Shown piece after piece: positions 32,001 through 63,866 of a stretch of DNA of 64,000 nt. A model generated the notes under the pieces. That model saw only the letters and a program-made list of their open reading frames with translations, ran no database searches and was not told the origin of the DNA. The stretch lies in the NCBI GenBank assembly GCA_000004985.1, contig GG738896.1, one strand, 5' to 3'. Numbering within the stretch: position 1 is the stretch's first letter; the number at the start of each line of letters is the position of its first letter. The position numbers and the translations under genes were made by a program. Source of the stretch: Naegleria gruberi (taxonomy: Eukaryota).

Positions 32001-35000
32001 GATCCATTAGCATTGATCTTAAGCTCATCTCAAATACTTTCCAAAACAAACCTCAATCATGCTTGGTAAAGTATGAAGATGGTGTTTTGTCCATCGTTCA
32101 AACATGCTCTGTTACCTATGAAAGTGGTAGCGTTACCCCCGTAGTACACATAACAACTCCATTAATGTGGTATTATGACATTGTTTTCCCAAGAATAATC
32201 TCTTACTCATTCTCATTGGATGGAGGTGCTTTTTACTATACCCATGCAAATTTCAAAATTAAGATGGTGGACGATAGTGAGAATTTCATTATTCGAACTA
32301 TTTATGATCAAAATATTGTTACATTTTCCAATGTTCCTTATTCTATTTTATCTGGTGTCTCACTTTCCTTCATCAAAATTGGAACAAATGGTACAAATTT
32401 GCAAGAACTTGTTTTTACAAAATCTTGTAAAGCAAGCTATTGTAATCTTGATTATGGGCATATAATATTTGAAAATTTAAGACCATTTGAATACTTTGAA
32501 TTTGATCGTATTAGAATCAACAAGGGAGCTTCTAGTAAGATCTTTGCAATTTCAAAGAACCTTCTTATTTTCAATCCTAATAATACTTTATCCTCAATTC
32601 CTTCCGTTTCAATTTCACATTCCAAAGTTCAATTAGGAGCTAAAACAAGTGTAACAATAATTCTTCCAGCTAGTTTTAGTAGTGATCTTTCCAAGATTAG
32701 CACTGTTACTGTGATTTTCAAAGCTGATGGTTCTACCAGTACCCCTTCAACCATATCCAAAGGTTGGACCTCAAAATATTCCTTCATTATTGAAATGGAT
32801 TCTCTACCACCGTGGGATTTGCAAATAGCTGCTATTGCTTTCCAAAATATTAATATTAACGTTATTGCCTCTCCAACAATTACTTTAATCCCTTCATTTG
32901 ACTTTTCTATTATTAATCAGTACCAAAAAGCCAAAGCATCTACAAGATCACAAACTAATCTCAGAGTTACATTTAATAGTGCAATTACTACTCAACAAGG
33001 AATAATTCCTTCAATGAAAATTTCTAATTCAAACACTAATTTATTCAAGTCCTACACTACAAATATTCAAATTGATGGAAATACCAGAACAACAAATGCT
33101 GTACAATTTACTGAATTGACAGTGACAGCTCCAGCAGCTTCATCAATTCTTACTGTTGATAAATCCCTGGTTAGATTCCCTACAAAATTTAGTATTGGCT
33201 TTGCATTCCTGGAAAACCAATATGTTATGAAGGAAATCCTTACCTATGATGATTCTATTGCTGATCCTCCAATTATAGTTAGTGTAAATCCACAGGAAGT
33301 TCCTCTAATTGATCAACCAGTTACTTTGGATATCAAAGCTTCTTCAATAGACTCACAGTCAACTCAATGTATCTTTAGGGCTAGCAAGGCATCCAGTGTT
33401 AATAACACAATAATTGTAAATGCCAATTTCATTGATCAGTATTCCATTGGTTGTACATTTGTTCCTTCTCAAATTGTTACCGAATTGGGTATTTCTAGTA
33501 CTTTAGAAATGGACATGACATTGAGATCTAATTTGGATGAAAGCAAAGAAGTTATCAATATTCCAATCTACAGACAACTTAATATTGATTCTTTCACACC
33601 TAAACAAGGTATTACAACAGGTGAATTTGAAACCACATTCATTGGAAGCTTCCCTATTCATCCTAGAGAAGAGTACTTTTTAACTCAGGGAAGAATGAAA
33701 TTCAGAGCCAAGTTCGGTATCAGAGAATCAACTGACTGCTCAAGAATAAGCTCAACAACTGTAAAATGCAAAGGTGTTAGTAACCCTATCTCTGAAGTAG
33801 ATATTTCCCTATCCAGAAATTCTGTTGATTTTGTGAAAGCATCTGAAAAGTTTGTTTATTATGGATGTGGACCTGGATATGAACAATCTAGTTTCAATGA
33901 ACTTTGTAAACCATGTAAGATTGGTTATTCAAAGAACTTTACTGGTGGTCCTTGTGTTGCATGTGATAGAGGTTACTATGCAAGTCAACCAGGTTCTTTA
34001 GAATGCACTAAATGTCCTTCCTTGCAAACTACATTAGATACTGGCTCTACAAGCATTGACTATTGTGGATGTCCTTCACAAACATATTATTATAATATTT
34101 ACAAGAATTCCTGTGTAACATGTCCAAAAGGTGCTGATTGTCCATCATTTAATACTACTTACCCTATTGCCAAGACTGGTTACTGGCATTCAAATGCAAC
34201 TGGTTATAGTCCTTACAATTTCTATGAGTGCATTCCTTCAACTTCTTGTAATGCAGGTTTGTTTGGAAACTGCACCGATGGTTATACTGGTTTCGTTTGT
34301 GGTTTGTGTGAAGATGGTTTTTATAGAAGTTCCAGATCATGTAGTAGATGTTCAAATCTTGCTCCTCTCTATTTGACACTTTTGATAGGTGGTGTAGCTG
34401 TTATTGCATTGATATTCTTCTTCTTTTCATCAATCAAGGTGCATCACATTTCATCATTGAGTATTGCACTCTTCTTCTTCCAAGTGAATAGTATGTGGAC
34501 AAAGTTTGATTTGAACCTTCCAGAAGAAATCTCTGGACTTTTCACTGCAAGTTCTGCAAGTACTTTCAACTTTGATTTTATTCAGTTCCAATGTGTTTTT
34601 CCAATTGGTTTTGTACCTCAATGGATTTTGAAAATGTTAATTCCTGTAATGCTTTTAATCTTATTCGTAGTGTTGTATTTAATGGGCGAATTGAGAAATA
34701 TTATTGCCAAGTTTGCTGGACCTAAAATTCCATGGAAGAAGTGGGATATTACCGATTTGTACAATGAGTTTATCAAGAGACAAGAAATTGAATCAGATCC
34801 AAAGCTCACTAAGATGCAAAAGTTAAAACATTCTCTCACTGGTATAATGTTCTCAGCTAGAACTGCAATCTACAAATCCCAACACAAAATTATTTGGACT
34901 CTCACCACCTATTTACCAAGAAGTGAGATGAAGAAGTTTTTGAATAATTGTATTCACTCATTCATTACTTTCCTTTCATTGGCCTACATGTATATTATTC

Positions 35001-36013
35001 AAACAAGTGCTGATATTTTCTTGTGTAAGGATCAAGCGGATGGTTCAAAGAACTTGGAACAAGCTCCACACATTACTTGTTTTGAAGGTACATGGTGGGT
35101 AATGTTCCCATTCTCAGTAATTTACTTTATCTTGTTTGGATTGGGAGCAGCTGCATTCTTCCTCTACTCTGCTATCAGATATAGAAAAGTCAAACTTACA
35201 GAAGAACATGCTTTCATTCAGAGATTCAAATTCCTATTTGTCAAATTCAAGCCAAGATATTTCTATTATGAAAGTGTTATTACCATTAGAAAGTTGGTCT
35301 TTTCAGTTCTCTACGTCTTTTTAGCTCCACTTCAAGTAATTGCTTTAGGATTTGTTTTGATTTTCCTTTCATTTGTCATTCACTTACAATTAGTTCCATA
35401 TTCAAAGAAGATGCACAACCTCATTGAATATGTAACCCTAGTTGCCACCCTCCTGACATTATTTACTGGTTTAATTTTCTTCTACGATGTTGAATCCTTG
35501 GTCGGTTTATTGTGGATTAGAACTCTTGCGCTTGTATTGACAATAATCATTTTCGTTCTCACTGCAGCTGTTCTCGTATTGGCTGTCTTGTGGGATATCA
35601 GAACTAGAAAGAGAAAAGAAGCCAAAAAGATTAAGGAAAAATTGGAAGAAATTAAAAATTCCATCAGTAATGGAACTACAGACAAGTCTGATGATAAGGT
35701 GAAGGAAACAATTGTCTTTGGTTTGGACATTGATGAATTTGATGATGATCCAGCTGGAGATAGCTCTCTCAATAGCAAACATGAAACCATTAATGATGTC
35801 TTCTCCAATCTATTCTCCCTCGAAAGAAGAAAGAAGAAAACAGACAAGATTAAACAAAAGGGAGCCAAGATCAAGTCAAAGATTACCAACAAGACCAAAT
35901 CAACATCAGAAAAGACAAATGGTGATGATAGTTTCGATTATTCTGATCAAACTCTATCCACCAACACTACCTCTGGTGACACTAAACAAACTTCCTCACA
36001 ACTTTTCCAATAA
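20015..36013 (+). CDS. giant (>5,300 aa) multi-pass membrane receptor: RCC1-like propeller, EGF-like modules, huge N/S/T-rich ectodomain, ephrin-receptor-like Cys-rich module, about 7-8 TM helices and a charged cytoplasmic tail
   Basis: Single uninterrupted reading frame of about 16 kb. The 'M' at 20135 in the ORF track is a TTG, and the frame is open back to 20015. N-terminal RCC1 blades (GRNDVNQLGLG, GWGDNTFGQLC, GDNRFGQLGQ). EGF-like patterns (CSCDEKHYGYSCH, CICDKGFRGIDCNSYLCD). C-terminal CKPCKIGYSKNFTGGPCVACDRGYYASQPGSLECTKCP (ephrin-receptor-like / GCC2_GCC3 pattern) at about 33.9-34.3 kb. Hydrophobic helices follow from about 34.36 to 35.6 kb, then a K/E/S-rich tail. Confidence 0.85.
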   Translation, partial: KSFKNPVSYPTPGWQLLYFQGFNCPKNGVPEGISDRSYGQLRVGYNHIIAFQVKSNNGTQKLNIVGKGDNTVGQLAIDRYISGGVRYFANITFEINWGEMVRLVQIEDLITSRTIANNQDVAKLQTYDAWDSNLYFDNIKGHYFPDNIIIQDINTCYLNTFIILKNQEIYGTGSNIYKSLSLSNENSKSNSPIRLTILENFLKSQSDWIDQLYCGYSSVFIKTKANRIIVFGRNDVNQLGLGSEFRANSITPTIHPFLTYYSQNIANLDTISFGLNFTLISFKDGSVYCAGLNNHHQCGLGINEYTISNFVQVPIPEKITKISTTAYASFFGIETGEILSSGWNLGFILGQNITDENYVSSTPVKIENLISPNDYQLSKGFQLFHITYQNATSTMAWGSNQFYSSGILYQGTGTAAYPTILALGNVERAVLESIANPSECILVGGHAAANGCSNSLLQRINLKTGFNTTFGEFRSYCSNFGTFNYSTEVCSCDEKHYGYSCHLIKPEFLGNCNQSSLENFAIAPNTCYCGGEGFYGTSCENKAPPRSVYSFTRSLNIQKFTLKNKMFDFGYLISGQSHTFLKSQLNNNRVYVFGNGLNTNDKYGIGLASNNMISDTIQISTLFERLSKKLTSSIRNIYPMKIQSVALFSNGDIYKTLNNSDFEIIASNVKYLTCSDITCFFITNDKNVYGIFDNQYNQLGLTDFATRQKVYESQPVLVSLLNNNYHKEIVNIYPSNYFTLFVNQFGNLFGIGKNTEYQLGIGHNLNIDKFIIPLIIEKPVSHVIVTESITYFKELNSVWKTMGKDILNIAPISQYLIYPTVITSLQEQENIYRAKGDIIITQTTTKFRQLTLNQDLSYGQEKIIDVNIMGDDIILVTIPSNFNSILCYNGYLDITGTSCICDKGFRGIDCNSYLCDRVTCNSCIGPNICSKNQSTTTNELRLFSKNYGMIQSKFNVKHHTIGDNFAIFIDYDGETKFIGDNFYGELGMGGYSSISISTSNLQLLTNNILLLPIYLANENVKSITSGNNFIIVLTESGNLFSVGDNRFGQLGQNDTISRYFLTKIESTITFTSVTCNSFHCIALGSNNKYYGWGDNTFGQLCLDSTTKKVVYTPSQIIFDVIIDVVSTSIMSIGQNSSIFYSNSGDVIACGKITVPSNYADKSVRQRVLPNFNIDLQAMEQIPRKFYTDLCLKNSNEEYYCLGENKFGTLGFGHALPLYGIFLSKHFGVDGGLFFHTHTNKINFYYSKNKILNYFGNGDLLNDINNMNPARQTNVFQSIGKFSFITSNEKFGYIITNTSNCFNRGYFSNGICTCNNIKYLGDECQTNTNIPQGTTSQFQIIDTLGNNFNFTNKFGSMSKIETFGNLPFGFNNTRNNLRVVSTFNLALNQSTSQLALIFAIDNYANLNVDIQFPNSGKISKLQTRLEEGSDYIYHTITTDNIDTNAIIQVTYTTNNSVILDSDMKNQFLKVYTRNEKNNIIPIGLKSSSELLSEVLARLNFLFSINGPHTAEISSIEEFPCDLDGNNNVIGLRLDGNFFNYTFYPILKDESFRTLKNFYSSKISSIRYPIHETFNFAESDISLINLSNNNNLEQSAGYYDLSPVKRTNILINVSKSKICDIPFADLFINPSKYNFTNTNMYCMKPIFDNSWCKPLSFRESTLYLTQFFVSTKLSIPLALCDSCSILNCFDFLTQNTSRLSYYFVYPDNNKIISNNFNIFETRKDVNVDLLFNEFNENNFLNFDYINMGIIYKYDSPIGIQELKGTIKLQYLKYLQSFNFTPIVLARNSDNIVTIKSENMKDFIKYNQVYCKTRISEEIITLDDNDKSTSYCNIRTGIEYNQNITVQLMAYPISGNNPFKIGEFNVYVLNITLIPNIINKYSTKYPQLIFINSDFTTGSFLSNSKLEFMENGETVYKIDQLKISYFNTLSITADIYKQNLDMYLDNVNLGYFTSQIVYKQVNLEKIIPSLSFNTEEMPTIYLDREIYSNIHSNIQYRCLDTLTNTSYSAQYLNSRIICNINNLPTNNVKLLDLIVQIRIYSFNDNEWFTYSSNSVKFYHLISNMNISLAEGSQTFSKCHYLSSSTTGFTPRIKLNEIVLPESETYRFSICHYNRLNEIVTYRSNYYRDNLFEASGFTLYLKSGYSNIYLCADSMIVSKPVVVFVINQTDYDSKPIFGFIGSDIWSGYIFHHQPLYSDSLFNLTYSCALFGDVQNYTVYSTDLITNKIDNYYVTRCIFTGLNNIIKQEAGFYFSLLAKRGSETVQLPATFINFIYGPKPTNYSTPFISHIPYSGYISTTLLTQDQDRDLFVSKNQNGFFRLTLPIDCLLFKVGGTYPIASAPLDTTSSTLKCDLTKYTVTSSEPFEISLGSLVTEYSYFVEFTSRTVHFTYLNKIEFNFEGYPILETGKSILLNYYTNKLPQYKQTQLNVTMSALGQYPIIKSCDFELTGSCIVDYNLTIPITPVLQTYILQFSFIINEFLLKQTLNIENTLFNNRFNVMYYSPFLFDFKTDSSIYNFKLQIDNGLNPDFNFDLDTDGIRRSIFYGLNNDSITEVTCSRISNYSTSIASNLETRIVSTFKGITFSVDKKPSTIYLRELYTTPNIVSQSIQKTINITLTTDIAIQKPLKKYYISLLDNKYECSIESTSLICPVLITYIGNPFYKEVLKILDGDNVVTRIGLPFILFKPISIREVKPTLLLQDNNSVNTTVLMEQTVFEDLGTEFIFSCSIEDGNFSAIVGDSNSVRCNFNNLNTGRKSVKIYLSSNNQYRSIKELLLTDINPAKDFEVIKNPTIALDNSIEQKTLFYTSETFSLTTLNILVTNTEFTLNNILYNISTEIGFYGKNSFVESTTYLGKFDTSYKFQVSFYASNNYEGFVPLRLTKVLSGTTKESRALTSDDYILTKISDLVLTCVTKVTLSKSVPAFGVESNLPRLVQLYSNFNFLKFIPDSNLLQDGKVNFKCVYEYLPKSNKAISSTTRIYNNEAFECNMTTPDVGQVQIDLYVEKDGHSLSLNINSWNYIIYDGLFLQPSYGLRTIENSRLVNPFKIQKYSDLSGINLNQFTKFNGKITEPDVSFTCEKELSSDGIYPLLNCTIPVLPSTNIMSFKQYELRLYTNPSMQLISNFSLGWLPTSSLYISNINPKIIQKSTSKTDMKTIYVDISGDSNVISRTLPEGNFAIYTRSAGVALLQSARPPYVAQPASIAIQTSNFEETVTLQYVNYNLLTPVIDIPKPDLVDFMKLTVNDVELNSIQYSSDSIKGSKASGATIFFTVSKNTATLFMLNNGGYNGSIKCVQDPITSNSATFVSESTDTLKFKCVLAKTSSITNSFILSKVEIYYNNPMAENGNMKVSSSALDFIWLPSTLPIEQPVPFAFISRVGSFDISLSDKKVFISSDNFVCYLADSTSTNVVKIKAIYNPSGTLTCPFSFSYSISTVFKISIYFSNGPSDVLLTTTRDVTFINAPLEISYIDPFITYHLPALTGSTTDINYKVSKLSFIPQGLSCTFREVTSTIPSIGQVRKITQAQIQDGLFVCPFLIDQTFSSYNLLTKLVIDLGSNLLDISSNELELILYKKKLTWNINSYLTASNLNTRYELRNYEIPHSSSYSLQQSVVATPYLRSQKIQNLKTTTLDCIGADPASCTFVGIEPMVNKIPSYMTTAIEFINVENQRKSYIIANDLTLFLKKSSFNVSHISPYIADYRQSHASNQNFLFTSASLNAEDFDITCQFDNKKTNMTRNQFCVVKPPTLPNGYPKTGIQNVTLTWNGIDLYSRSYPIDFIEAYQVNNLITFYSYRSNITLIDNPYVPLPFSGDFSGYTFSIGLFEKNRLIGEATCKQLFANNAQLECVKGPFSYSTSYPVTSIVKLLINAQSAFQMKGEIVLYSAPTIQSLSTNYFRINQIYTMEVYGSVFYQKDTPTLEIYSNTTFNSYPTMVVDSNTIRIQNIGFNDLQETLRKSRLKFSSGAYLDLPDISIYKGVKEDFSLQSINSEAYDNGVITATTTRSISIDLKLISNTFQNKPQSCLVKYEDGVLSIVQTCSVTYESGSVTPVVHITTPLMWYYDIVFPRIISYSFSLDGGAFYYTHANFKIKMVDDSENFIIRTIYDQNIVTFSNVPYSILSGVSLSFIKIGTNGTNLQELVFTKSCKASYCNLDYGHIIFENLRPFEYFEFDRIRINKGASSKIFAISKNLLIFNPNNTLSSIPSVSISHSKVQLGAKTSVTIILPASFSSDLSKISTVTVIFKADGSTSTPSTISKGWTSKYSFIIEMDSLPPWDLQIAAIAFQNININVIASPTITLIPSFDFSIINQYQKAKASTRSQTNLRVTFNSAITTQQGIIPSMKISNSNTNLFKSYTTNIQIDGNTRTTNAVQFTELTVTAPAASSILTVDKSLVRFPTKFSIGFAFLENQYVMKEILTYDDSIADPPIIVSVNPQEVPLIDQPVTLDIKASSIDSQSTQCIFRASKASSVNNTIIVNANFIDQYSIGCTFVPSQIVTELGISSTLEMDMTLRSNLDESKEVINIPIYRQLNIDSFTPKQGITTGEFETTFIGSFPIHPREEYFLTQGRMKFRAKFGIRESTDCSRISSTTVKCKGVSNPISEVDISLSRNSVDFVKASEKFVYYGCGPGYEQSSFNELCKPCKIGYSKNFTGGPCVACDRGYYASQPGSLECTKCPSLQTTLDTGSTSIDYCGCPSQTYYYNIYKNSCVTCPKGADCPSFNTTYPIAKTGYWHSNATGYSPYNFYECIPSTSCNAGLFGNCTDGYTGFVCGLCEDGFYRSSRSCSRCSNLAPLYLTLLIGGVAVIALIFFFFSSIKVHHISSLSIALFFFQVNSMWTKFDLNLPEEISGLFTASSASTFNFDFIQFQCVFPIGFVPQWILKMLIPVMLLILFVVLYLMGELRNIIAKFAGPKIPWKKWDITDLYNEFIKRQEIESDPKLTKMQKLKHSLTGIMFSARTAIYKSQHKIIWTLTTYLPRSEMKKFLNNCIHSFITFLSLAYMYIIQTSADIFLCKDQADGSKNLEQAPHITCFEGTWWVMFPFSVIYFILFGLGAAAFFLYSAIRYRKVKLTEEHAFIQRFKFLFVKFKPRYFYYESVITIRKLVFSVLYVFLAPLQVIALGFVLIFLSFVIHLQLVPYSKKMHNLIEYVTLVATLLTLFTGLIFFYDVESLVGLLWIRTLALVLTIIIFVLTAAVLVLAVLWDIRTRKRKEAKKIKEKLEEIKNSISNGTTDKSDDKVKETIVFGLDIDEFDDDPAGDSSLNSKHETINDVFSNLFSLERRKKKTDKIKQKGAKIKSKITNKTKSTSEKTNGDDSFDYSDQTLSTNTTSGDTKQTSSQLFQ

Positions 36014-39292: not shown

Positions 39293-41309
39293 TTACTTGG
39301 CTGATCTTTTAAGTTCTTCCTCTTCAATTTCTTTGAGCCATTGATTCATATGCTTTCTATTTCTCAAAAACCAGAAGGTGTACGATAGAGCAGCAATACC
39401 AACACAACATAAACTTCCACAAGCTAGGAAAACAAATCTGGATGGTGTAGAGAAGAAGAGAGCAGAGAAAAAGACAATAAGGTCAGCAATTTTGGTTAAG
39501 GAACCTTCTGTTGAGTTGACAATACCAGAATCTTTCTGATCTACCAATTGTTGCATAATTTGAATTTCCGCAAGGTCAAAGGCATATAAACCCAATCTAC
39601 TCATGATAATTCCAATAAGGAAGAAGTAAACAGCAAAGTAGAATTGCTCAGACCAGAAATTGAAAACAATAAAGCACAAAACTCCTGCCACTAGAGAGAA
39701 GAATTGGAAGTAAAGGGAAACAAGTCCTCCTCTAAAAACGTTAATTCTCATAATCAAGTAAGGTGCTATAAAGGTTGACAAGAGACCAGAGATGGCACTC
39801 AATGCTTGGAAAGTTCCCAAAACAGCAGAGTGAATTTTGTGACTCTTAAGGTAAGAAAGGAGCAATCCACTATGAGTAAGTACAGTAATAAATAAAAAGA
39901 CAAATGCCAAACTTGAGAGAAATACTTTTTGGGTGAGATATGATTTCCATCCCATAAACAGAATCTAATCAAAATGGAAGTAGATTATTATTGTAAAGTT
40001 ATTAATTCTAGTACGTACCTTGAAAACGTTTTGATGTTTCAAATTAACTGTTTCCTCCTTTTGTTCCAAATCAATTTGTTGCATTCCCTCATTGGCTGCC
40101 AATAATTCTCTTTCACGCTCTTCTTTGATTTTCAATTCTTGCTCCAATTTTGTAATGTGAAGTTCTTTCGTATTATTGTAAACATAGCGAATGCAAATAT
40201 ACTCTGGAACAAGAGAAAACACATTCCATAAACAAACTACAATGGCTCCAATCTTGTATCCTGCAAAAGTAAGAATGAGACCAAATAAAACAGGTGATAC
40301 AATGAGTGAAACCATGTCGAGACGTCTCATCATTGAGTTGATTCTTTCTAATGGAAGTTTTTCGCCTCTGGCAACCACCAAGCACCAATCTTTAGTTCTG
40401 GCCACACTTGTAACCATAGAGGATAAGTCACTTAAAGAACCAATAAGAGCACATGAAAAGAAAAGTACCATTGAAAGAACTGTTTCGAATGGCCAAATAA
40501 ATAGAGCATCTGTTTCAGTTTGAGGTTTTGAATCCTCAGATCTCCATCCAAAATATCCAAGTAAGAAAATTAAAAGAGTAGTTAATGCTACAGAGGCATT
40601 TTGTACAATAAGAGCAATTGACATGACCTTAAATCTTGGCATTGTATCAACCATGTAACCCATATGTGGCCCAAGTATTATTCCAATAAGTTTTTGTATA
40701 AATCCCATAAGTGCCATAGGTAATAATGTTTCTGGGAACATGTCACCAAATATTACAGGTAAAGCAAAAGCCCACATTCTATCACCCTTTCGTATTATTT
40801 CACAATTAATAAAATTAATTTCACACTCTTTCACTTACCCAAGATGCCAAAAAGTGACTTGCATAAAAGACATTTAACTTTCTAGATTTAAATTGAAATT
40901 CATCCTTGAAATACTTTTTAATTTTCTCAATGGTTGATTTCGGAGCAGCATCTTGTTCTGCACTCTTTTCAAATTCCAACATTTCATCGAGTTGAGTTTT
41001 TTCCTGTCCATGAACAATGATTTCATCCTCTGTATGTTCTTCCTCTATATCATCATGTAGAGAGAACATTTGAACGTTTTGTGGTTCGTAACTAATTGTC
41101 TCCTCCGTAGGAACAACAGTAACTTGTCGATTGACATCTGTTGTTTGCTGTTCAGCGATTTGATGATCATCAGCATTAACAAAATCAACAACAGCTACTC
41201 GTGGTTCATTATCAATCACCTGTGGATTATCATTCATACTCGAGTAGTCACCATCATCCTCCAAAGCAAAATGTTGCCTTAAGTTTGCTGGCTCTTCTTC
41301 GTTAAACAT
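39293..41309 (-). CDS. FPN: ferroportin (SLC40A1-family iron exporter); complement(join(39293..39964,40019..40788,40841..41309))
   Basis: Spliced product ...SHFLASW|GDRMWAFALPVIFGDMFPETLL...VARGEKLPLERINSMMRRLDMVSLIVSPVLFGLIL...ILFMGWKSYL... matches ferroportin hallmark segments (GDRMW.FA, VVAGE..L..MN..IRRID). Introns 40789..40840 (GTAAGT..AAAG) and 39965..40018 (GTACGT..TTAG). Exon phases are consistent. Confidence 0.85.
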
Positions 41310-57698: not shown

Positions 57699-57836
57699 GG
57701 CTCTGTAACTTATTTTCCAATGAATTGTACCATATAATAAACCTTTAGTTTCGTATTAATCTGTATGTAATATTGAAATGGAAAATTATTTGAAATGCTT
57801 TTAGCAGATTAAGGATAGCAAAAAATTAGTAAAATT

Positions 57837-57909
57837 TATACCCTGTGGGACTCGAACCCACAACCCCCGGCTCCGTAGGCCGATGCTCTTCCAATTGAGC
57901 CAAGGGTAC
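57837..57909 (-). tRNA. tRNA-Arg (anticodon ACG)
   Basis: Minus-strand read GTACCCTTGGCTCAATTGGAAGAGCATCGGCCTACGGAGCCGGGGGTTGTGGGTTCGAGTCCCACAGGGTATA. The acceptor stem has a G1:U72 wobble, the anticodon loop is CTACGGA, and the T-loop is TTCGAGT. No encoded CCA. Confidence 0.8.
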
Positions 57910-58073
57910 TTTCTTTGAAGTGATATCATTATTCTTTTTATCATTTCCCTTTTTTGTACAGCTAAGGTTCAAGTTTAATAATGCAGTATTAATAATTGTG
58001 GGATTTGAACATTATCCTTAGTGCTTTGAGTTATTAATAACCGTACCAAATTGTATTACACCTCGGAAAAAAA

Positions 58074-58946
58074 ATGTCCAAAAACCAATTCGATTTGTTG
58101 GGAGATGATTCGCTAGTTAAAGATTACGAAAAACACAGAATCATTAATGAAAGAAATCAACCACTACTCTTCCGATCACTAAAAGAAAAAGAAAAATCGA
58201 AAAAGCGAACCAAAAGAGCTGAATTTGAACTAATATATGATATTGAGTATTTGTGGTTTATAGTATTGGAGTTTCTTCCTTTGAGAGATTTATTAAGATG
58301 CTCCGTAGTGAATAAATTCACATGTGGATTGATTCATTCCTATAATTGTTATGGAGAAATATTGAAAAGAGATTTCTTTAATAACAATGAAAATGATAAG
58401 AAAGAGATGGGAAAAATTGTAAAGAATATCGATAATACTGGAGTTTTTGCTTACTTGATTCAGGATTTTATTGGAAAAGCCAAGTTAACTCCTCAAAAAT
58501 TACAAACAATTAAGAATACTATTATGCAAGAACCAGACTCTAAAATGAAGAGAATATTTGGAAAGATTTATTTGGCCATTGAGGAGGAGATTGAAAGTGT
58601 ACAAGAAGAGGCAGAGCTATTGAAGCAACATGTTAGAAGCTTCTTGATTGAAAAGCTTTCTAAAAAGAAGACTGAAAATATGAAAACTAAGGTTAAGGAA
58701 TGTGCTCACAACCATTGTGCAATTTCTCAAATCAGTTTACCTCCATTTACATTCAGACTCGAGTGCTTGGATTGTAAAGTGGCTGCAAGTACCAACTTTA
58801 GGCCAGAAAATGTTTTCAGAAAGGAAGTTCGATCAAGACTATGTAGATACCGAGTTCTGGACACATCAACCAAATTTGACAAGTATGTCTTGAATACTAC
58901 TTCACATTCTTTTGAATTTGATCCAGATACTGTGTATAATTGCTAA
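58074..58946 (+). CDS. hypothetical F-box-like protein
   Basis: 290-aa ORF with an F-box-like stretch IEYLWFIVLEFLPLRDLLRCSVVNKF. Confidence 0.3.
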   Translation: MSKNQFDLLGDDSLVKDYEKHRIINERNQPLLFRSLKEKEKSKKRTKRAEFELIYDIEYLWFIVLEFLPLRDLLRCSVVNKFTCGLIHSYNCYGEILKRDFFNNNENDKKEMGKIVKNIDNTGVFAYLIQDFIGKAKLTPQKLQTIKNTIMQEPDSKMKRIFGKIYLAIEEEIESVQEEAELLKQHVRSFLIEKLSKKKTENMKTKVKECAHNHCAISQISLPPFTFRLECLDCKVAASTNFRPENVFRKEVRSRLCRYRVLDTSTKFDKYVLNTTSHSFEFDPDTVYNC

Positions 58947-58995
58947 GATAATGAATGGGATTAAATAATTCAATTTATTTCTTTATAAAACAAAA

Positions 58996-59952
58996 ATGCA
59001 CAAGCAAATACCTTCACCATCCTCAACTTTGATCAAACTTGATAAATTCTCAGATACTGATGATTGGCCAGTACAAGTTTCGGAATGGACTTGTCCAAGT
59101 TGTTCTCATCAAAATCAAAAATCATACAAGTGTTGTGAAAATTGTTCTTTCCAATCATCTCAATTCTTTTTCAATAACAGAGGAGCACACTTTAAATCGG
59201 AGAAGAAGATTGACAAGTTTTATCAAGTTTTTAAAAAGAAAAAGGTTTTCCTACCTGTAGTCCACGTTTGGGATGTTGCTCATGCTCTAAAGAATGCAAA
59301 ATTACTCTACGATCATCACGTAGATGGTCTCTTTCTCATCAATAATAATTGCTCGGCTGACATCTTGATCGATGCTATTAAAAGTGTTAGAAGGGAATTT
59401 CCAGACAAGTGGCTTGGTATTAATATTTTGGGTATTTCTATTAGGGAATTATTTCTGAAGATTGCTGATTTGGATTTTGATGGATTGTGGTTGGATAGTG
59501 CCATGATTACTGAGGAGAGTGAATTCCAGAATATTGCAGAATTCATTCAGGATCAATTGGGGAGTATGAATTTCAAAGGATTGTACTTTGGTGGAATTGC
59601 ATTTAAATATCAGAGGACTGTTATCAAAGATTTGAAAAAAGTAATTGATATTGCTAGCAGCTATGTGGATGTTATTCTCACATCAGGTGAAGCAACTGGA
59701 ATGCAAATTAAGGAGGAAAAACTGAAAAAGTTTACAGAGCTAGTCAAATGTAATCCTTTAGGAATAGCTTCTGGTGTGACGAATAAGAATTTGATCACAT
59801 CAATTAAACATGCAGATGTGTTCATTGTTGGTACATATATTGAGCACTACGTAACAGGAGATATTGTTGAGGAGAAGCTGGAAGAAATGTTAAAACTATT
59901 TCAAATGTACAATGAAATGCTAGAGAAGAGGAAGCAAGATGATATTCAGTAA
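58996..59952 (+). CDS. RanBP2-type zinc finger fused to a BtpA/SgcQ-like TIM-barrel domain (tentative)
   Basis: WTCPSCSHQNQKSYKCCENCSF matches W-x-C-x2-C...N...C-x2-C. The downstream VFLPVVHVWDVAHALKNA...VFIVGTYIE resembles BtpA-family (PF03437) barrels. Confidence 0.4.
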   Translation: MHKQIPSPSSTLIKLDKFSDTDDWPVQVSEWTCPSCSHQNQKSYKCCENCSFQSSQFFFNNRGAHFKSEKKIDKFYQVFKKKKVFLPVVHVWDVAHALKNAKLLYDHHVDGLFLINNNCSADILIDAIKSVRREFPDKWLGINILGISIRELFLKIADLDFDGLWLDSAMITEESEFQNIAEFIQDQLGSMNFKGLYFGGIAFKYQRTVIKDLKKVIDIASSYVDVILTSGEATGMQIKEEKLKKFTELVKCNPLGIASGVTNKNLITSIKHADVFIVGTYIEHYVTGDIVEEKLEEMLKLFQMYNEMLEKRKQDDIQ

Positions 59953-59960
59953 GGAATAAA

Positions 59961-61484
59961 TTAAATCTTTTTTAGTTTGACAGTAAATGAATTATTGGCA
60001 GAGCTGGTAATTGTTCTTATGGAGTGACCTTGTAATTCCTCAGATTCTCCATATTGTGCTACACTCGAGGAAGAAAATTGGAAAATTTGACCACCACTTC
60101 CTTGTGATGAGAGAGGTGTGGGTATTTCTCTTCCTTGATACTCGTTCAATCTTCCAGTTTCATCCTTGAAATCTTTCACTGAGCAAATAAAATCTGGATT
60201 CATCTTGCTTACCGATTCACATACATCCAAAAAACTGTGTGGGAGGATGTATCCGCCACTGACCTCCAGTGAGTAAGGTTTGTTATTGCCATTCTCGTTA
60301 TTTGTTCTTGGGAATAATTTACATTTTTTCAAGGTGGAATTAATGAAAATATGTGGACTGATTATTTGAGGAACATCATAATCTAAAAATCTCAAATGAT
60401 AATTTCCCAAAAAGTCAATTAGTGAGTGAAGATTGCTTCGTCCAATAATAACCAAGTACCTATACTGATTGCTGATTTCCTCTGGTCTGGATGCCAACAT
60501 GACGTTATCTGCCTCAGTTCTCATCTCTGGCTTATTCACAGAATGTTCACTAAATTCAATGTCCTCAGCTTTCAATCTACTAATTAAATCCGAACTTGGC
60601 TGAGAGACGATACACCTTTTGGCTTTTGATGAAAAGGCAGATTCGTTTAAAAAGATGAAGGAACTTTTCTGGCCATAATCTGGAAGGAGGTAAAAGTAAG
60701 GGCATAGACCTTCAATGAAGGATGTGAAAACTGAAATTAATGCCTCACACCAACAATTATACCTCTCATTTAAAAACTCGATATCTAATCTTTGTAAATT
60801 CTTATCAAAAGTCTCATAAACATCTGACAAATTTTCCAAATTTTCTCTGTTATAGTTAGGTAATTCTCTTATTTTGGAATACATAGAGTGAGGTAAAAGA
60901 GATGAAGGATAAATATGATAGAGAAGGCCTTTGAAGAATTCACTTGAGGTTTGCGGTTCTTGATGAATTGGTGAAGGAGTCATTGGACTCTGACTAAAAC
61001 TTTGTGAAAATCTCGTATTCGTTACAACATTACTAGTAGAGTTACCAGTTACAAAACTGGACAATCCCACAACTTTAGAATTTCCACTAATATTATTCGT
61101 CCAAATAAAATTCGCCGATGACTTGAAAGTTATAAATGTTTTCAAAGTATAATCAATAGGAATATTCTTGATCAATTTAACATCCAATTCTCTTTCCTGA
61201 TTGGCAATCTTTTTCTTATTCGCTACTGCTGATGGCTTTCCCAAAAGAGCAAATCCTTGAAAGAGTTTCTTTTTCTGCTCTTCGGAAACTTGTCTCTTGG
61301 TAGCACCCACTCCGAGATTTAATAATTTATTGTCAGCCTCCGTCAGCTTTGGCTTCTTGCTTTCGGTGGTAGATGAGGAATCGGCAGAAGACGAGTGATG
61401 ATCATTTTCAGAAGGGGAGGATCTTTTCATTTTTTTTTGAATTTGTTTTTTATTAAATTTTGGCGCCAAATTTGAGTTATTCAA
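59961..61484 (-). CDS. hypothetical protein (Ser/Thr-rich N-terminus, conserved-looking C-terminal region)
   Basis: 507-aa ORF with no confidently recognised domain. Confidence 0.35.
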   Translation of the reverse strand: MNNSNLAPKFNKKQIQKKMKRSSPSENDHHSSSADSSSTTESKKPKLTEADNKLLNLGVGATKRQVSEEQKKKLFQGFALLGKPSAVANKKKIANQERELDVKLIKNIPIDYTLKTFITFKSSANFIWTNNISGNSKVVGLSSFVTGNSTSNVVTNTRFSQSFSQSPMTPSPIHQEPQTSSEFFKGLLYHIYPSSLLPHSMYSKIRELPNYNRENLENLSDVYETFDKNLQRLDIEFLNERYNCWCEALISVFTSFIEGLCPYFYLLPDYGQKSSFIFLNESAFSSKAKRCIVSQPSSDLISRLKAEDIEFSEHSVNKPEMRTEADNVMLASRPEEISNQYRYLVIIGRSNLHSLIDFLGNYHLRFLDYDVPQIISPHIFINSTLKKCKLFPRTNNENGNNKPYSLEVSGGYILPHSFLDVCESVSKMNPDFICSVKDFKDETGRLNEYQGREIPTPLSSQGSGGQIFQFSSSSVAQYGESEELQGHSIRTITSSANNSFTVKLKKI

Positions 61485-61529
61485 CAGTTATTTGTTAATA
61501 TCTCAAAGTGTTTAAATAGTATTTGACAA

Positions 61530-63866
61530 TTATTGTGTAATTTGGAATACTTCAATTTCTAAAACTCTAAAATTAGCACATCCAGCCAAATATTTCGAAA
61601 TAGACTTTGAACTATAATTGCCCGTATCTGGAAGGTAATACGTGTGTCCAAATTTCGAATAAGAATTGAGATTTTCATTGCAATTATCAGCAATGCAAAA
61701 GTCATTTCCACCTCCAAATATTGGTAAATAAGAAGCTTTTGCAGAAATAGCAAATCTGTGTTGACCTGGCTTGATATTGAACTTGTTAAAAATATATACC
61801 ATTCCATTGCTAGTCACTTTTTGAAATATTTTAAAGATGAAAGCTGAAGTATCAGAGACGTATTCTACACCAGTGTTAGCCCAACTTTGCATTGTGAATC
61901 CTCCAAAAATATGTCCAAAATCTGACTGAATAATTGTAAGAGTAGGTCCCTTATTATCACAAAGTTCATGGAATTTTGATGCCTTGAAACCATCTCTTGA
62001 ACCTCTGTAGAGTAGAGTGGGCTTAATACGAGATTTGGTATGAACATTAATCTCATTGAACATTCTAGAATTTGGAATAATATTTGAGTTGAAAAAAATG
62101 TTCTTGAATTTTTCAGAATTACAATCAAAGGTATCATTATCGGCATTGAAAATGGCTTGTTCGAAATTGGAATTGGCAAAATCACACATTCTCAATTTAC
62201 ATGTGGAAAAGTTGCACTTTTTCAAGTTCGAGTCAAGAAATTTGCACTTGTCGAATAGCAAGTTCTTGAATTGATAATTTTCAAAGTTAATGGAATGGAA
62301 GGAACATTCGGTGAAGGTAATGTCATACAATTGAGATTCGGGAAATACGAATTCTCTATCGAAAGAGCATCTCCAAAATTCCACACATATGATTTCACAA
62401 TTTTCAAATTTGGTTTGGAAGGAACAATCTGAAAATCCAATATTCAACAATTTGCAGTCCTTAAACTTGTTGTTTTTCAAGTTTTCTAAATGACAATTTT
62501 CAAATGTGAAATCTGAAAATATGCATTCAGTAAAGCAATACGCCAAATTTAAATTGGTTTCGAATAGAGATCCAATCTGACTGTGTTTGACTTCTATACC
62601 TTGAATTGTAAGAGAGTTAAGTAAATCAGGGGAAATTTTGGAAAGATTAATTTGACACTTTTTCAATGTACTTCCCTTAATTGTATTCGAAAAATCGAAA
62701 TGTCTCATGTCCATATCAGAAAATGTGCATACATTGAGAGTACATTCTTTGCATTGCAAACTCTTTACACCAGTAAAGAACGATCCATCAAGAGTACAAT
62801 TCACAAACCTGCAACTTTCAATATTATTTGATTGATTGAATTGAAGTTGAACTCGACATGAAATCATTTTAGCACCTGCAAAGTTTGCCTTATCAATCAA
62901 ACAATTCTCAAATCTCACATTTCTAAATGTAGTTTTGGAAAAGTCACAATTAATGAAATCATAATGATAGGAGAATGTAATTAATGCAATTTCCATTCCA
63001 CTGAATTTCATATTTCTAAAGTATTTGGAATTCATGTGATTGTTAAATAATTGACCAAGTGTACTATTGATTGGAATTTTCTTCAATTCCTTCCAATAAT
63101 TCTTCAACTTGAAAACCTTACAAGCAGAAATCAATTGTTGCTTCAAAGTTGGTGATAAATCACTACTTGCAATGATATTGCCAAACTTGAACCATTCCAA
63201 TAGGTGCTTGAATACTGTTGGATCACAATCAACAAAGAAGGAACCATTCTTTTCGGTAAAGATATTGGTTCTTTCACCTTTCAATAATTTGATGAATAGA
63301 TTGGTTTCGTCCTCTCTTTTTGTGGAGGTGAAATATTTCTTATTGGTCATTATTAGTTGACCACCAATATTGAAATATATTGGATCCAGTTCCATTTCGT
63401 CATCATCGTCATCTTCAAACTCATCTTCGGATTGTTCTTCTTCAACTTGTTTCTTTTCTGCCTCCTCAACTGCTTCTTTTTGCTTTCGTTCAATTTCTTC
63501 CAAAATTGTCTTCCTTGTTGAACATTCTTCCAAATGTTCTAGAATTCTCCCTCTAGCTTCTTCTTTATTGCAATAACTACAAACTACCATCAGCTTGTCA
63601 ATGTAGTTTTTAATGTTTTTCGGAGCAGGTTTAGTTTGAAAATTGGCATCATGACATTTAGGACAAGTTGAAAGGGACTTGGCACATGCTAAACAAAACA
63701 TATTTTCACAAATAGTATGGAAAACAGGATCAGACAATGGCAGAGAACAGGAAGAACACAGCCACTCTTCTTCTACCTTCTCCACAAACGAAAAATCGAG
63801 TATTGTCGCATGAGATTGTGGTGTCACCTGCTGCTTCACTGTCAACATTTTTTTTTCAAGGAACAA
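61530..63866 (-). CDS. multidomain protein: RING/TRAF-type zinc fingers, BTB (KCTD-type), pentapeptide repeats, C-terminal TLDc domain
   Basis: N-terminal CSSCSLPLSDPVFHTICENMFCLACAKSLSTCPKCH plus VVCSYCNKEEARGRILEHLEEC (RING plus TRAF-like ZnF). BTB_2 (IYFNIGGQLIMTNKKYF...FFVDCDPTVFKHLLEWFKFG). Pentapeptide-like repeats (CDFSKTTFRNVRFENCLIDKANFAGAKM...). TLDc-like C-terminus (LLYRGSRDGFKASKFHELCDNKGPTLTIIQSDFGHIFGGFT...LPIFGGGNDFCI). Confidence 0.6.
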   Translation of the reverse strand: MFLEKKMLTVKQQVTPQSHATILDFSFVEKVEEEWLCSSCSLPLSDPVFHTICENMFCLACAKSLSTCPKCHDANFQTKPAPKNIKNYIDKLMVVCSYCNKEEARGRILEHLEECSTRKTILEEIERKQKEAVEEAEKKQVEEEQSEDEFEDDDDDEMELDPIYFNIGGQLIMTNKKYFTSTKREDETNLFIKLLKGERTNIFTEKNGSFFVDCDPTVFKHLLEWFKFGNIIASSDLSPTLKQQLISACKVFKLKNYWKELKKIPINSTLGQLFNNHMNSKYFRNMKFSGMEIALITFSYHYDFINCDFSKTTFRNVRFENCLIDKANFAGAKMISCRVQLQFNQSNNIESCRFVNCTLDGSFFTGVKSLQCKECTLNVCTFSDMDMRHFDFSNTIKGSTLKKCQINLSKISPDLLNSLTIQGIEVKHSQIGSLFETNLNLAYCFTECIFSDFTFENCHLENLKNNKFKDCKLLNIGFSDCSFQTKFENCEIICVEFWRCSFDREFVFPESQLYDITFTECSFHSINFENYQFKNLLFDKCKFLDSNLKKCNFSTCKLRMCDFANSNFEQAIFNADNDTFDCNSEKFKNIFFNSNIIPNSRMFNEINVHTKSRIKPTLLYRGSRDGFKASKFHELCDNKGPTLTIIQSDFGHIFGGFTMQSWANTGVEYVSDTSAFIFKIFQKVTSNGMVYIFNKFNIKPGQHRFAISAKASYLPIFGGGNDFCIADNCNENLNSYSKFGHTYYLPDTGNYSSKSISKYLAGCANFRVLEIEVFQITQ

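What the first reader, a model, noticed from the sequence alone, without database searches (positions are those of the whole stretch)
61530..63866. Unusual domain fusion: RING/TRAF zinc fingers, KCTD-type BTB, pentapeptide repeats and TLDc
KCTD9-like proteins combine BTB with pentapeptide repeats. Here the same core is prefixed by RING plus TRAF-type zinc fingers (E3-ligase-like) and suffixed by a TLDc domain, which is linked to oxidative-stress and V-ATPase regulation. This could be a self-contained Cullin3-adaptor/E3 hybrid with a TLDc effector. I do not recognise this as a described architecture.
Basis: partly seen in the sequence, partly recalled or inferred. Interest (0 to 1): 0.5.

Follow-up and report, generated by a model that had tools for sequence, protein, structure and literature searches.

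The report
Naegleria RING–BTB–pentapeptide–TLDc multidomain protein
The five-domain protein is real: it is an already deposited but unstudied Naegleria gruberi gene, one member of an amoeba-specific family that looks like self-assembling ubiquitin ligases with a TLDc "reader" domain, which is moderately interesting rather than surprising.

Summary
Window 61530..63848 (-) is one uninterrupted CDS. From its first ATG it is 772 aa and identical to Naegleria gruberi XP_002672659.1 / UniProt D2VTE4, "TLDc domain-containing protein".

All five modules were verified by HMMs, PDB sequence or profile searches and AlphaFold/Foldseek:
- An LNX/TRAF-like RING plus one C2HC (TRAF-type) zinc finger.
- A helical/acidic linker.
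- A KCTD/T1-type BTB.
- About 59 pentapeptide repeats.
- A C-terminal TLDc.

It is not a gene-merging artefact. The same domain order recurs in N. gruberi D2VDD4 and D2VNL9 and in N. fowleri A0A6A5C0N9. Sub-architectures occur in Naegleria and Willaertia. The T1-BTB–TLDc core is widespread in eukaryotes (rotifer, sponge, dinoflagellate, slime moulds). Naegleria appears to have added the RING–ZnF and the pentapeptide helix.

The most likely mechanism is inferred, not shown: a BTB-oligomerised RING E3 that uses TLDc as its target-binding domain, with the β-helix as a rigid arm. The "Cul3 adaptor" part is untested and is made less necessary by the built-in RING.

Caveats for this copy:
- It has Ser at the E2-contact Ile position (CSSC).
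- It has no canonical RING His.
- It carries a premature stop in a 97.6%-identical environmental contig.

I found no literature on it. I rate it a new variant of known kinds, of moderate-low interest.

The parts
61530..63848 (-). Complete CDS (ATG 63848..63846, stop TAA 61532..61530), 772 aa. It equals N. gruberi XP_002672659.1 / D2VTE4.
   Evidence: ORF list, sequence, exact identity to P0151.
63654..63758 (-). Variant RING finger, aa 31-65: C31-x2-C34-x9-H44-x2-C47-x4-C52-x2-C55-x6-C62-P-x-C65. The canonical His position is N49. The E2-contact position is S33 (CSSC).
   Evidence: All 8 candidate ligands are invariant in 5 paralogues. Profile hits to LNX2/LNX1/TRIM21/RBBP6/TRAF6. Fold match to LNX and TRAF6. 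Pfam RING models score below cutoff.
63519..63593 (-). Single C2HC (TRAF/LNX-type) zinc finger, aa 86-110: C90-x2-C93-x11-H105-x3-C109.
   Evidence: C90, C93 and H105 are invariant columns in the family alignment; C109 lies one column off in the paralogues, which have x4 spacing. It aligns with the post-RING finger of LNX2/LNX1 and superposes on TRAF6 RING-ZF1. Pfam zf-TRAF does not hit.
63399..63518 (-). Long helix followed by an acidic, disordered linker (aa 111-150). Paralogues have a roughly 100-aa coiled-coil-like helix here.
   Evidence: AF2 helix 99-138/141, then pLDDT <50 for 137-153. Paralogue alignment.
63063..63395 (-). KCTD/T1-type BTB domain, aa 152-262.
   Evidence: Pfam BTB_2 21.7 bits vs cutoff 21.4. 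PDB profile hits to KCTD1/15/16/17/5/9 and SHKBP1. Foldseek KCTD17 TMt 0.82. KCTD16/15/1/9.
62133..63041 (-). Pentapeptide-repeat right-handed beta-helix, aa ~270-572. About 59 pentapeptides (about 15 coils), Cys/Phe-rich, with a less regular stretch at aa ~385-430.
   Evidence: Pfam Pentapeptide_4, _3 and Pentapeptide all above cutoff. Foldseek HetL/Qnr/AlbG/MfpA. Period-5 autocorrelation about 7 sd above shuffles. AF2 strand pattern.
61533..62090 (-). TLDc domain, aa 587-772. It keeps G620, F648-G649-G650, G714 and E766, and has the subfamily motif F-H627-x2-C630-D631.
   Evidence: Pfam TLD E 1.2e-21. AF2 pLDDT 80-97. Foldseek NCOA7/Skywalker/OXR2/mEAK7. Profile vs PDB. Invariant columns. 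Numbering.

Best explanation
This is a genuine, single-exon Naegleria gruberi gene. It encodes a modular protein built on the TRIM/TRAF plan: a catalytic end, an oligomeriser and a recognition end.

The proposed mechanism has four steps, and all of them are inferred from homology:
1. The N-terminal LNX/TRAF-like RING with its adjoining C2HC zinc finger recruits an E2~ubiquitin.
2. The helix and the T1/KCTD-type BTB assemble the protein into a homo-oligomer (tetramer or pentamer, as in KCTDs). This brings the RINGs together.
3. The roughly 15-coil pentapeptide beta-helix acts as a rigid arm or an extra binding surface.
4. The C-terminal TLDc domain binds the target. V-ATPase V1 is the only well-established TLDc client.

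On this reading the protein would be a self-sufficient oligomeric RING E3 with a TLDc substrate receptor. The BTB would serve for assembly rather than for Cul3 recruitment.

What is shown here: the ORF, the identity of the gene, the five domains, and the recurrence of the architecture in a heterolobosean paralogue family.
For: Gene and architecture:
- The ORF is continuous and is an exact match to the deposited 772-aa model.
- The same domain order occurs in D2VDD4, D2VNL9 and N. fowleri A0A6A5C0N9, and sub-architectures occur in further Naegleria and Willaertia proteins.

Catalytic module:
- The 8 candidate RING ligands and three of the four finger ligands are among only 37 invariant columns at about 32% pairwise identity; the fourth finger Cys is present in every paralogue but one column off.
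- The best solved relatives are RING-ZnF units whose flanking finger is required for E3 activity: LNX2 (5din, E 1e-14; PMC4741457), TRAF6 (PMC5702613) and RNF125 (PMC4944129).
- Asn at the canonical His position also occurs in the aligned RBBP6 RING, CCGN.

Oligomeriser: the BTB fold matches pentameric KCTD1, KCTD9 and KCTD17 T1 domains.

Recognition module:
- The TLDc fold is confident, and it matches NCOA7 and mEAK7 as seen bound to V-ATPase (7une, 7u8o, 7uzg).
- The Gly/Gly/Gly/Glu residues whose mutation abolishes or weakens NCOA7-V-ATPase binding (G815, G845, G896, E938; PMC8608904) have conserved counterparts: G620, G649/650, G714 and E766.
- BTB+TLDc pairing recurs independently in insects and across protists and animals. 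That pattern fits TLDc acting as the cargo end of a BTB scaffold.
Against: - No biochemical, expression or interaction data exist for this protein or any paralogue.
- This particular copy has Ser33 where the paralogues, LNX and TRIM21 have the Ile/Leu that contacts the E2 (CSSC vs CxIC). It may be a weak or dead E3.
- The Pfam RING models do not reach their cutoffs. The proposed eighth ligand (H44) is an inference that I could not check in coordinates.
- The TLDc belongs to a divergent subfamily, with the FHxxCD motif absent from mEAK7 and Skywalker in the alignments. The position equivalent to NCOA7 S817 is not conserved. V-ATPase binding therefore cannot simply be transferred.
- The conserved Gly and Glu residues are mostly structural-core residues.
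- A 97.6%-identical environmental contig carries a TAG stop at L552 and 5 non-synonymous against 2 synonymous changes in 293 codons. This hints at relaxed constraint, or at assembly error.
Confidence: 0.45

Rival explanations
1. Cullin-3 substrate adaptor. The KCTD-type BTB docks on Cul3-Rbx1 and TLDc and/or the pentapeptide helix presents substrates. The protein's own RING is auxiliary, for example priming or chain-type switching, which would make it a two-ligase hybrid.
For: The BTB is KCTD-type, and several KCTDs, including KCTD9, KCTD5, KCTD17 and SHKBP1, are Cul3 adaptors (hits; review PMC8127222). The insect BTB-BACK-TLDc proteins have the classical Cul3-adaptor layout.
Against: Cul3 binding is not universal among KCTDs (Smaldone 2015, cited). 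The best-scoring BTB relatives here are KCTD1, KCTD15 and KCTD16, which from my own knowledge are non-binders. A covalently attached RING-ZnF makes Rbx1 redundant. Nothing in the sequence tests the interface.
Confidence: 0.15
2. Non-catalytic oligomeric scaffold or regulator. TLDc, multimerised through the BTB, modulates a partner such as V-ATPase assembly, as Oxr1 and mEAK7 do. The RING-ZnF has degenerated into a protein-interaction or dimerisation module.
For: S33 replaces the E2-contact Ile, N49 replaces the canonical His, and the RING HMMs are sub-threshold. Characterised TLDc proteins act by binding, not by catalysis. Many relatives lack the RING altogether and carry only BTB-TLDc or multiple TLDc domains.
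Against: All eight candidate Zn ligands and the adjoining finger are retained across paralogues. The AF2 model of the module is confident and is TRAF6/LNX-like. Paralogues do keep the Ile/Leu.
Confidence: 0.22
3. A decaying or fast-evolving surplus paralogue of an expanded lineage-specific family, with little or no current function in this strain's relatives.
For: There is a premature stop and a 5:2 non-synonymous to synonymous ratio in the near-identical metagenome contig. No relative in the library exceeds about 42% identity outside its own cluster, so no clear N. fowleri orthologue exists. This is the most divergent family member: short linker, CSSC, and a divergent BTB sequence.
Against: In the window genome the 2.3-kb ORF is intact. 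All Zn ligands and the TLDc core residues are kept. The difference counts are tiny and neighbouring genes show similar ratios. The stop may be a metagenome assembly error.
Confidence: 0.12
4. Annotation or assembly artefact: two or more adjacent genes read as one ORF.
For: None beyond the unusual length of the domain list.
Against: There is no stop codon in 2,316 nt of 33% GC sequence. The same order recurs in at least 3 further proteins on other scaffolds and in another species. There are no paralogous fragments elsewhere in the window.
Confidence: 0.02

Closest known systems
Naegleria/Willaertia paralogue family (N. gruberi D2VDD4, D2VNL9, D2VR88, D2VZ46, D2VQJ8; N. fowleri A0A6A5C0N9; Willaertia magna KAL9651469)
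   Same: The modules and their order are the same, with 30-37% identity over the full length. The Zn ligands are invariant, the BTB motif is shared, and the TLDc subfamily motif LLYRGSRDGF..FH..CD..GPT is shared.
   Different: The window protein has a short acidic linker in place of a roughly 100-aa coiled coil, CSSC in place of CxIC, and a more divergent BTB. Other members lack the repeats, the RING or the TLDc. All of them are uncharacterised.
KCTD9 (KHA-BTB-pentapeptide repeats)
   Same: A T1-type BTB is followed directly by pentapeptide repeats. The KCTD9 BTB is a detectable relative: E 2.5e-4 and TMt 0.71-0.74.
   Different: No Pfam family covers the N-terminus where KCTD9 has its KHA domain. 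The N-terminus carries RING-ZnF and the C-terminus carries TLDc. The repeat region is far longer, at about 59 pentapeptides. The BTB is no closer to KCTD9 than to KCTD1, 15, 16 or 17. Cul3 binding is unknown.
LNX1/LNX2 Zn-RING-Zn and TRAF5/TRAF6 RING-ZF1 catalytic units
   Same: These are the best sequence and fold matches of aa 12-114: E 1e-14 to 6e-5, TMt about 0.7, rmsd 2.5-3.1 A. In both, a RING is followed by a C2HC finger, and in TRAFs that is followed by a helix.
   Different: There are no PDZ domains (LNX) and no MATH/TRAF-C domain (TRAF). There is only one finger. The canonical His is replaced by Asn, with an invariant His three residues before Cys3. The last ligand pair is CPxC, not CPxD.
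T1-BTB-TLDc proteins of other eukaryotes (Brachionus 'KCTD21', Symbiodinium 'KCTD12', Oscarella, Physarum, Planoprotostelium, an MMETSP transcript) and insect BTB-BACK-TLDc (Bombyx Bmmp, Drosophila CG7102)
   Same: A BTB lies upstream of a TLDc domain of the same subfamily. The insect proteins show that the pairing is functional in vivo, through a wing phenotype that depends on the BTB.
   Different: They have no RING-ZnF and no pentapeptide helix. The insect proteins use a classical BTB+BACK rather than a T1-type BTB.
OXR1/NCOA7/mEAK7/TBC1D24 TLDc proteins
   Same: The TLDc fold is the same, with TMt up to 0.79. The core Gly/Gly/Gly/Glu residues are conserved.
   Different: Sequence similarity is only remote (profile E 1e-6 to 1e-10). 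The FHxxCD motif is subfamily-specific. The partner domains are entirely different. V-ATPase binding is untested.

Membership tests
RING-finger E3 ligases | Eight cross-brace Zn ligands with C3HC4-like spacing | tested here: inconclusive
   Eight invariant candidates are present: C31, C34, H44, C47, C52, C55, C62 and C65. The canonical His position is Asn, as in the aligned RBBP6. Using H44 as a ligand is an inference. The Pfam RING models score 14.5-15.5 bits, below their cutoffs.
RING-finger E3 ligases | RING fold | tested here: met
   The AF2 pLDDT is 82-92 for aa 21-100. Foldseek finds LNX2, LNX1 and TRAF5/6 at TMt 0.67-0.71, rmsd 2.5-3.1 A. The profile hits LNX2 at E 1e-14.
RING-finger E3 ligases | E2-contact hydrophobic residue (CxIC) and E2-dependent ubiquitin transfer | tested here: not met
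   The residue was read from the sequence: the window protein has C-S-S-C (Ser33), whereas the paralogues have Ile or Leu. Catalytic activity itself is not testable with these tools.
TRAF family | TRAF-type C2HC zinc finger(s) after the RING | tested here: met
   One finger is present, C90-x2-C93-x11-H105-x3-C109. C90, C93 and H105 are invariant columns; C109 is one column off in the paralogues. It aligns and superposes with TRAF6/TRAF5 RING-ZF1 and with the LNX post-RING finger. Pfam zf-TRAF gave no hit at E<=1.
TRAF family | C-terminal MATH/TRAF-C domain | tested here: not met
   There is no MATH hit in Pfam. The C-terminus is BTB-pentapeptide-TLDc. The protein is therefore not a TRAF, only TRAF-like at the N-terminus.
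KCTD family | T1/KCTD-type BTB domain (Pfam BTB_2) | tested here: met
   BTB_2 scores 21.7 bits against a cutoff of 21.4, which is marginal. This is reinforced by profile hits to KCTD1/15/16/17/5/9 and by Foldseek KCTD17 at TMt 0.82.
KCTD family | Homo-oligomerisation and, for a subset, Cul3 binding | not testable with these tools
   Only single-chain prediction is available. Cul3 recognition is not universal among KCTDs.
KCTD9-like proteins | KHA domain + BTB + pentapeptide repeats | tested here: not met
   The BTB-pentapeptide adjacency is present. No Pfam family other than weak RING matches was reported N-terminal to the BTB at E<=1; I did not confirm that a KHA model is in that library. 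That region is a RING-ZnF. The BTB is not preferentially KCTD9-like.
Pentapeptide-repeat proteins | Tandem A(D/N)LXX-like pentapeptides forming a right-handed quadrilateral beta-helix | tested here: met
   Three Pfam models score above cutoff. The period-5 signal is about 7 sd above shuffles. The AF2 strand ladder and Foldseek hits to HetL, Qnr, AlbG and MfpA agree.
TLDc proteins | TLDc domain (Pfam PF07534) and fold | tested here: met
   77.8 bits against a cutoff of 24.5. Foldseek NCOA7 TMt 0.77-0.79. Profile vs mEAK7 at 7e-10. Conserved G620, G649/650, G714 and E766.
TLDc proteins | Binding to V-ATPase | not testable with these tools
   Known for mammalian and yeast TLDc proteins. Here it is only an inference, weakened by subfamily divergence.

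The most novel reading that the evidence does not exclude
Heterolobosean amoebae evolved their own TRIM/TRAF-like family of self-oligomerising RING E3 ligases. In it a TLDc domain, held out on a pentapeptide beta-helix arm, is the substrate receptor. If the client is the V-ATPase, this would couple ubiquitination directly to proton-pump regulation, for example at the contractile vacuole or phagosome. It would also give the first example of TLDc used as an E3 targeting module.
Probability: 0.15. Interest if true: 0.55.

Novelty: new variant of a known kind. Interest (0 to 1): 0.3.

Why it matters
TLDc domains are currently understood almost only through five mammalian and two yeast proteins that bind the V-ATPase. 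How BTB/KCTD scaffolds and pentapeptide helices are used in eukaryotes is also poorly known.

A family that wires TLDc to a RING-ZnF ligase head and a T1 oligomeriser would show TLDc acting as a portable recognition module in ubiquitin signalling. It would also offer a tractable set of natural domain-deletion variants in Naegleria: RING±, repeat± and TLDc± paralogues.

As it stands this is a database-known, uncharacterised, lineage-specific domain shuffle. It is useful for domain-architecture surveys. It does not resolve any long-standing question.

Tried and rejected
- The search for homologous proteins gave nothing useful. I tried the whole protein, the N-terminal profile and the full-length profile. 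It missed proteins that are in its own collection and returned only 0, 4 and 6 hits, the last set mostly bacterial pentapeptide proteins. Family membership therefore rests on the exhaustive HMMER search plus cluster look-ups.
- Foldseek against afdb50 was unavailable, so I could not run an architecture-wide structural census.
- The look-up of encoding contigs found no record for the 772-aa protein. The fragment P0001 led to one metagenome contig.
- Literature searches for TLDc+pentapeptide(+BTB), TLDc+Naegleria, the accession numbers, and Naegleria+pentapeptide repeat found nothing relevant.
- Prokaryotic or viral origin is rejected. The neighbours are eukaryotic (HSP90, RasGEF, SGT1/Ecd, RCC1, PPR-DYW, ferroportin), and the protein is an exact match to an N. 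gruberi protein.
- A local tandem duplication is rejected, because the window holds no paralogous segment.
- The NCBIfam hits to HalA, Qnr and HetL are generic pentapeptide similarity far below their cutoffs, and I disregarded them.
- A catalytic Cys-His-Asp reading of the TLDc FHxxCD motif is not pursued. H and C sit three residues apart within one short motif, and I could not inspect coordinates.
Full report
WHAT IS THERE

The window carries an open reading frame at 61530..63866 on the minus strand (778 aa counted from a TTG). The first ATG is at 63848, directly after a run of nine A's. From that ATG the product is 772 aa. It is identical, residue for residue, to Naegleria gruberi NEG-M XP_002672659.1 / EFC39915.1 / UniProt D2VTE4, automatically named "TLDc domain-containing protein".

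The rest of the window agrees with Naegleria:
- GC is about 33%.
- The genes are dense, eukaryotic and mostly intron-less: HSP90, RasGEF, SGT1/Ecd, RCC1 proteins, ferroportin and an ABC transporter.
- There is a plant-type PPR-E-DYW deaminase.

DOMAIN CHECK

Numbering is that of the 772-aa protein; window coordinates come.

TLDc (aa 587-772):
- Pfam TLD scores 77.8 bits against a cutoff of 24.5.
- AF2 pLDDT is 80-97.
- Foldseek finds NCOA7 at TMt 0.77-0.79, plus Skywalker/TBC1D24, OXR2, and mEAK7 as bound to V-ATPase.
- A 16-sequence subfamily profile finds mEAK7 at E 7e-10.

Pentapeptide repeats (aa ~270-572):
- Three Pfam models score above cutoff.
- The period-5 hydrophobic autocorrelation is 0.39, against 0.00 ± 0.057 for shuffles.
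- AF2 shows a strand ladder.
- Foldseek hits HetL, Qnr, AlbG and MfpA.
- This amounts to about 59 pentapeptides, or roughly 15 coils.

BTB (aa 152-262):
- Pfam BTB_2 is marginal, 21.7 bits against 21.4.
- A five-paralogue profile hits KCTD1/15/16/17/5/9 and SHKBP1.
- The model superposes on KCTD17 at TMt 0.82 and rmsd 2.1 A.

RING plus zinc finger (aa 25-112):
- Pfam RING models are sub-threshold and zf-TRAF is silent.
- The family profile finds the LNX2 Zn-RING-Zn crystal structure at E 1e-14, LNX1 at 3e-11, then TRIM21, RBBP6, RAG1, TRAF6 and RNF125.
- The single sequence already finds TRAF5 at 8.6e-4.
- The AF2 model superposes on LNX2, LNX1 and TRAF5/6 RING-ZF1 at TMt about 0.7 and rmsd 2.5-3.1 A.

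DETAILS OF THE RING

In an alignment of five paralogues at about 32% identity, only 37 columns are invariant. Among them are:
- C31, C34, H44, C47, C52, C55, C62 and C65 in the RING.
- C90, C93 and H105 in the finger. The fourth finger ligand, C109, is one column off in the paralogues.

The position of the canonical RING His ("CGH") is Asn, Gln or Met in the family. The same Asn is seen in the aligned RBBP6 RING, "CCGN". An invariant His three residues before Cys3 probably supplies the missing ligand. That is an inference, because I could not inspect coordinates.

The window copy is unusual in reading C-S-S-C. Every paralogue, and LNX and TRIM21 as well, has Ile or Leu at the E2-contact position.

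NOT AN ARTEFACT, BUT A FAMILY

An exhaustive HMMER search of 1.84 billion representatives gave 70 hits below 1e-30. I mapped the five query segments onto the best 150 and ran Pfam on ten of them. The architectures found were:
- Full RING-ZnF / BTB / pentapeptide / TLDc order: N. gruberi D2VDD4 (710 aa) and D2VNL9 (685 aa), and N. fowleri A0A6A5C0N9 (1099 aa).
- RING-ZnF-CC-BTB-pentapeptide: D2VR88.
- RING-ZnF-BTB-TLDc: D2VZ46, and Willaertia KAL9651469.
- BTB-pentapeptide-TLDc: D2VQJ8.
- BTB-TLDc alone: D2VKP2 and D2W381.

The BTB of the window protein is most similar to Naegleria BTBs whatever their architecture. That indicates domain gain and loss inside one lineage-specific family.

Outside the Heterolobosea, the T1-BTB-TLDc pair, without RING or repeats, is found in:
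- A rotifer (Brachionus, named "KCTD21").
- A sponge (Oscarella).
- A dinoflagellate (Symbiodinium, named "KCTD12").
- Physarum and Planoprotostelium.
- A marine transcriptome.

Insects have BTB-BACK-TLDc proteins with a genetic phenotype: Bombyx Bmmp and Drosophila CG7102.

The parsimonious history is therefore a widespread BTB-TLDc core that, in Naegleria, acquired an N-terminal RING-ZnF(-coiled coil) and an inserted pentapeptide helix. The alternative, a KCTD9 with extras, fits less well. The BTB is not preferentially KCTD9-like, and no KHA-type family was reported for the N-terminus.

HOW IT PROBABLY WORKS

This section is inferred. The layout has a catalytic RING with an activity-supporting zinc finger, then a helix, then an oligomerisation domain, then a variable C-terminal binding domain. 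That is the TRIM/TRAF design.

In LNX2, TRAF6 and RNF125 the finger next to the RING is needed for E2 engagement or activity (PMC4741457, PMC5702613, PMC4944129). KCTD T1 domains form tetramers or pentamers, as in the solved pentameric KCTD1, KCTD9 and KCTD17 hits.

Characterised TLDc domains are binding modules for the V-ATPase. The residues whose mutation abolishes NCOA7-V-ATPase binding have conserved counterparts here: G620, G649/650, G714 and E766.

My best reading, at confidence about 0.45, is an oligomeric and self-sufficient RING E3. Its TLDc picks the target and its pentapeptide helix is a rigid arm or second surface. The BTB would serve for assembly.

The rivals are:
- A Cul3 adaptor (0.15). 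Cul3 binding is not universal in KCTDs, and the built-in RING makes Rbx1 unnecessary.
- A non-catalytic TLDc scaffold with a degenerate RING (0.22). This is favoured by S33, N49 and the sub-threshold HMMs.
- A decaying surplus paralogue (0.12).
- An annotation artefact (0.02).

A HINT OF RELAXED CONSTRAINT

An environmental contig (ENA ERZ929261, locus L001) is 97.6% identical to window 57836..62409. In the 293 codons it shares with this gene there are 5 non-synonymous and 2 synonymous differences. One of the non-synonymous changes is TTG to TAG at Leu552, inside the repeat region. Neighbouring genes show no stops, but their ratios are similarly noisy. The counts are too small to decide between a real null allele and an assembly error.

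No relative above about 42% identity exists outside the gene's own cluster. This copy therefore has no evident N. fowleri orthologue.

NOVELTY AND SCORE

Every domain is a known kind, and the protein is already in public databases under an automatic name. BTB+TLDc and BTB+pentapeptide pairings both have precedents. What is new is the five-module combination and its restriction to a heterolobosean paralogue family, for which I found no publication. I rate it a new variant of a known kind, with interest 0.3.

The most novel reading not excluded is a protist-specific, TRIM-like E3 family that uses TLDc as substrate receptor and possibly targets the V-ATPase. I give it a probability of about 0.15 and an interest of about 0.55 if true.

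LIMITS

- There is no transcript, interaction or activity data.
- Only single-chain structure prediction was available, and I had no access to coordinates.
- The afdb50 structural census was unavailable.
- The word-indexed homology search performed poorly on this repeat-rich query.

Noticed in passing
window 20135..36013 (+): A single 5292-aa ORF with an RCC1-like beta-propeller near aa 913-1172 and an ephrin-receptor-like Cys-rich module near aa 4600. It spans the AT-richest part of the window (GC 0.23-0.25 at 22-28 kb). This is a giant protein of unknown function.
   Followed up: partly
window 8638..10248 (-) and 10419..11537 (-): A PPR protein with an E motif and a C-terminal DYW deaminase domain, next to a second PPR gene. 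This is the plant-type RNA-editing factor architecture. From my own knowledge it is already reported in Naegleria.
   Followed up: no
L001 (ENA ERZ929261 metagenome contig) vs window 57836..62409; stop at window 62195..62193: An environmental contig 97.6% identical to the window carries TTG->TAG at Leu552 of the target gene. It has 5 non-synonymous and 2 synonymous differences in 293 codons. This is either a null allele in a wild N. gruberi relative or an assembly error.
   Followed up: partly
window 59961..61484 (-), real ATG about 61431: The downstream neighbour starts about 100 bp after the target's stop. It has no hit in the Pfam copy used here. Its homologue on L001 carries a precomputed PF27662 (DONSON) hit.
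   Followed up: no
TLDc domain, aa 626-631 (window ~61956..61973) and the family alignment A3: The BTB-associated TLDc subfamily from very different eukaryotes shares an invariant F-H-x2-C-D motif (H627, C630, D631), plus a nearly invariant G-x-D. The motif is absent from mEAK7 and Skywalker in the alignments. Its role is unknown. It may mark a client other than the V-ATPase.
   Followed up: partly
N. fowleri contig of 730,860 bp (locus tags FDP41_001763 to FDP41_001807): At least five TLDc, RING or T1-BTB family genes share one N. fowleri contig within about 45 locus tags: 001763, 001771, 001772, 001798 and 001807. This suggests a tandem-expanded cluster. The N. gruberi paralogues lie on different scaffolds.
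   Followed up: no
P0002 (JGI metagenome, 1833 aa): The second-best hit is a protein made of seven tandem TLDc domains and nothing else (Pfam TLD 499 bits, 7 stretches). Its organism is unknown.
   Followed up: no
window 39293..40834 (-) and 14629..16464 (-): Ferroportin and an ABC transporter are each split over two adjacent ORFs. This is presumably caused by introns, so not every gene in this window is single-exon.
   Followed up: no
tool behaviour: The word-indexed homologue search returned none of the Naegleria paralogues that are demonstrably in its collection. It even missed the 99%-identical cluster representative P0001. Negative results from it on repeat-rich queries should not be trusted.
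   Followed up: yes
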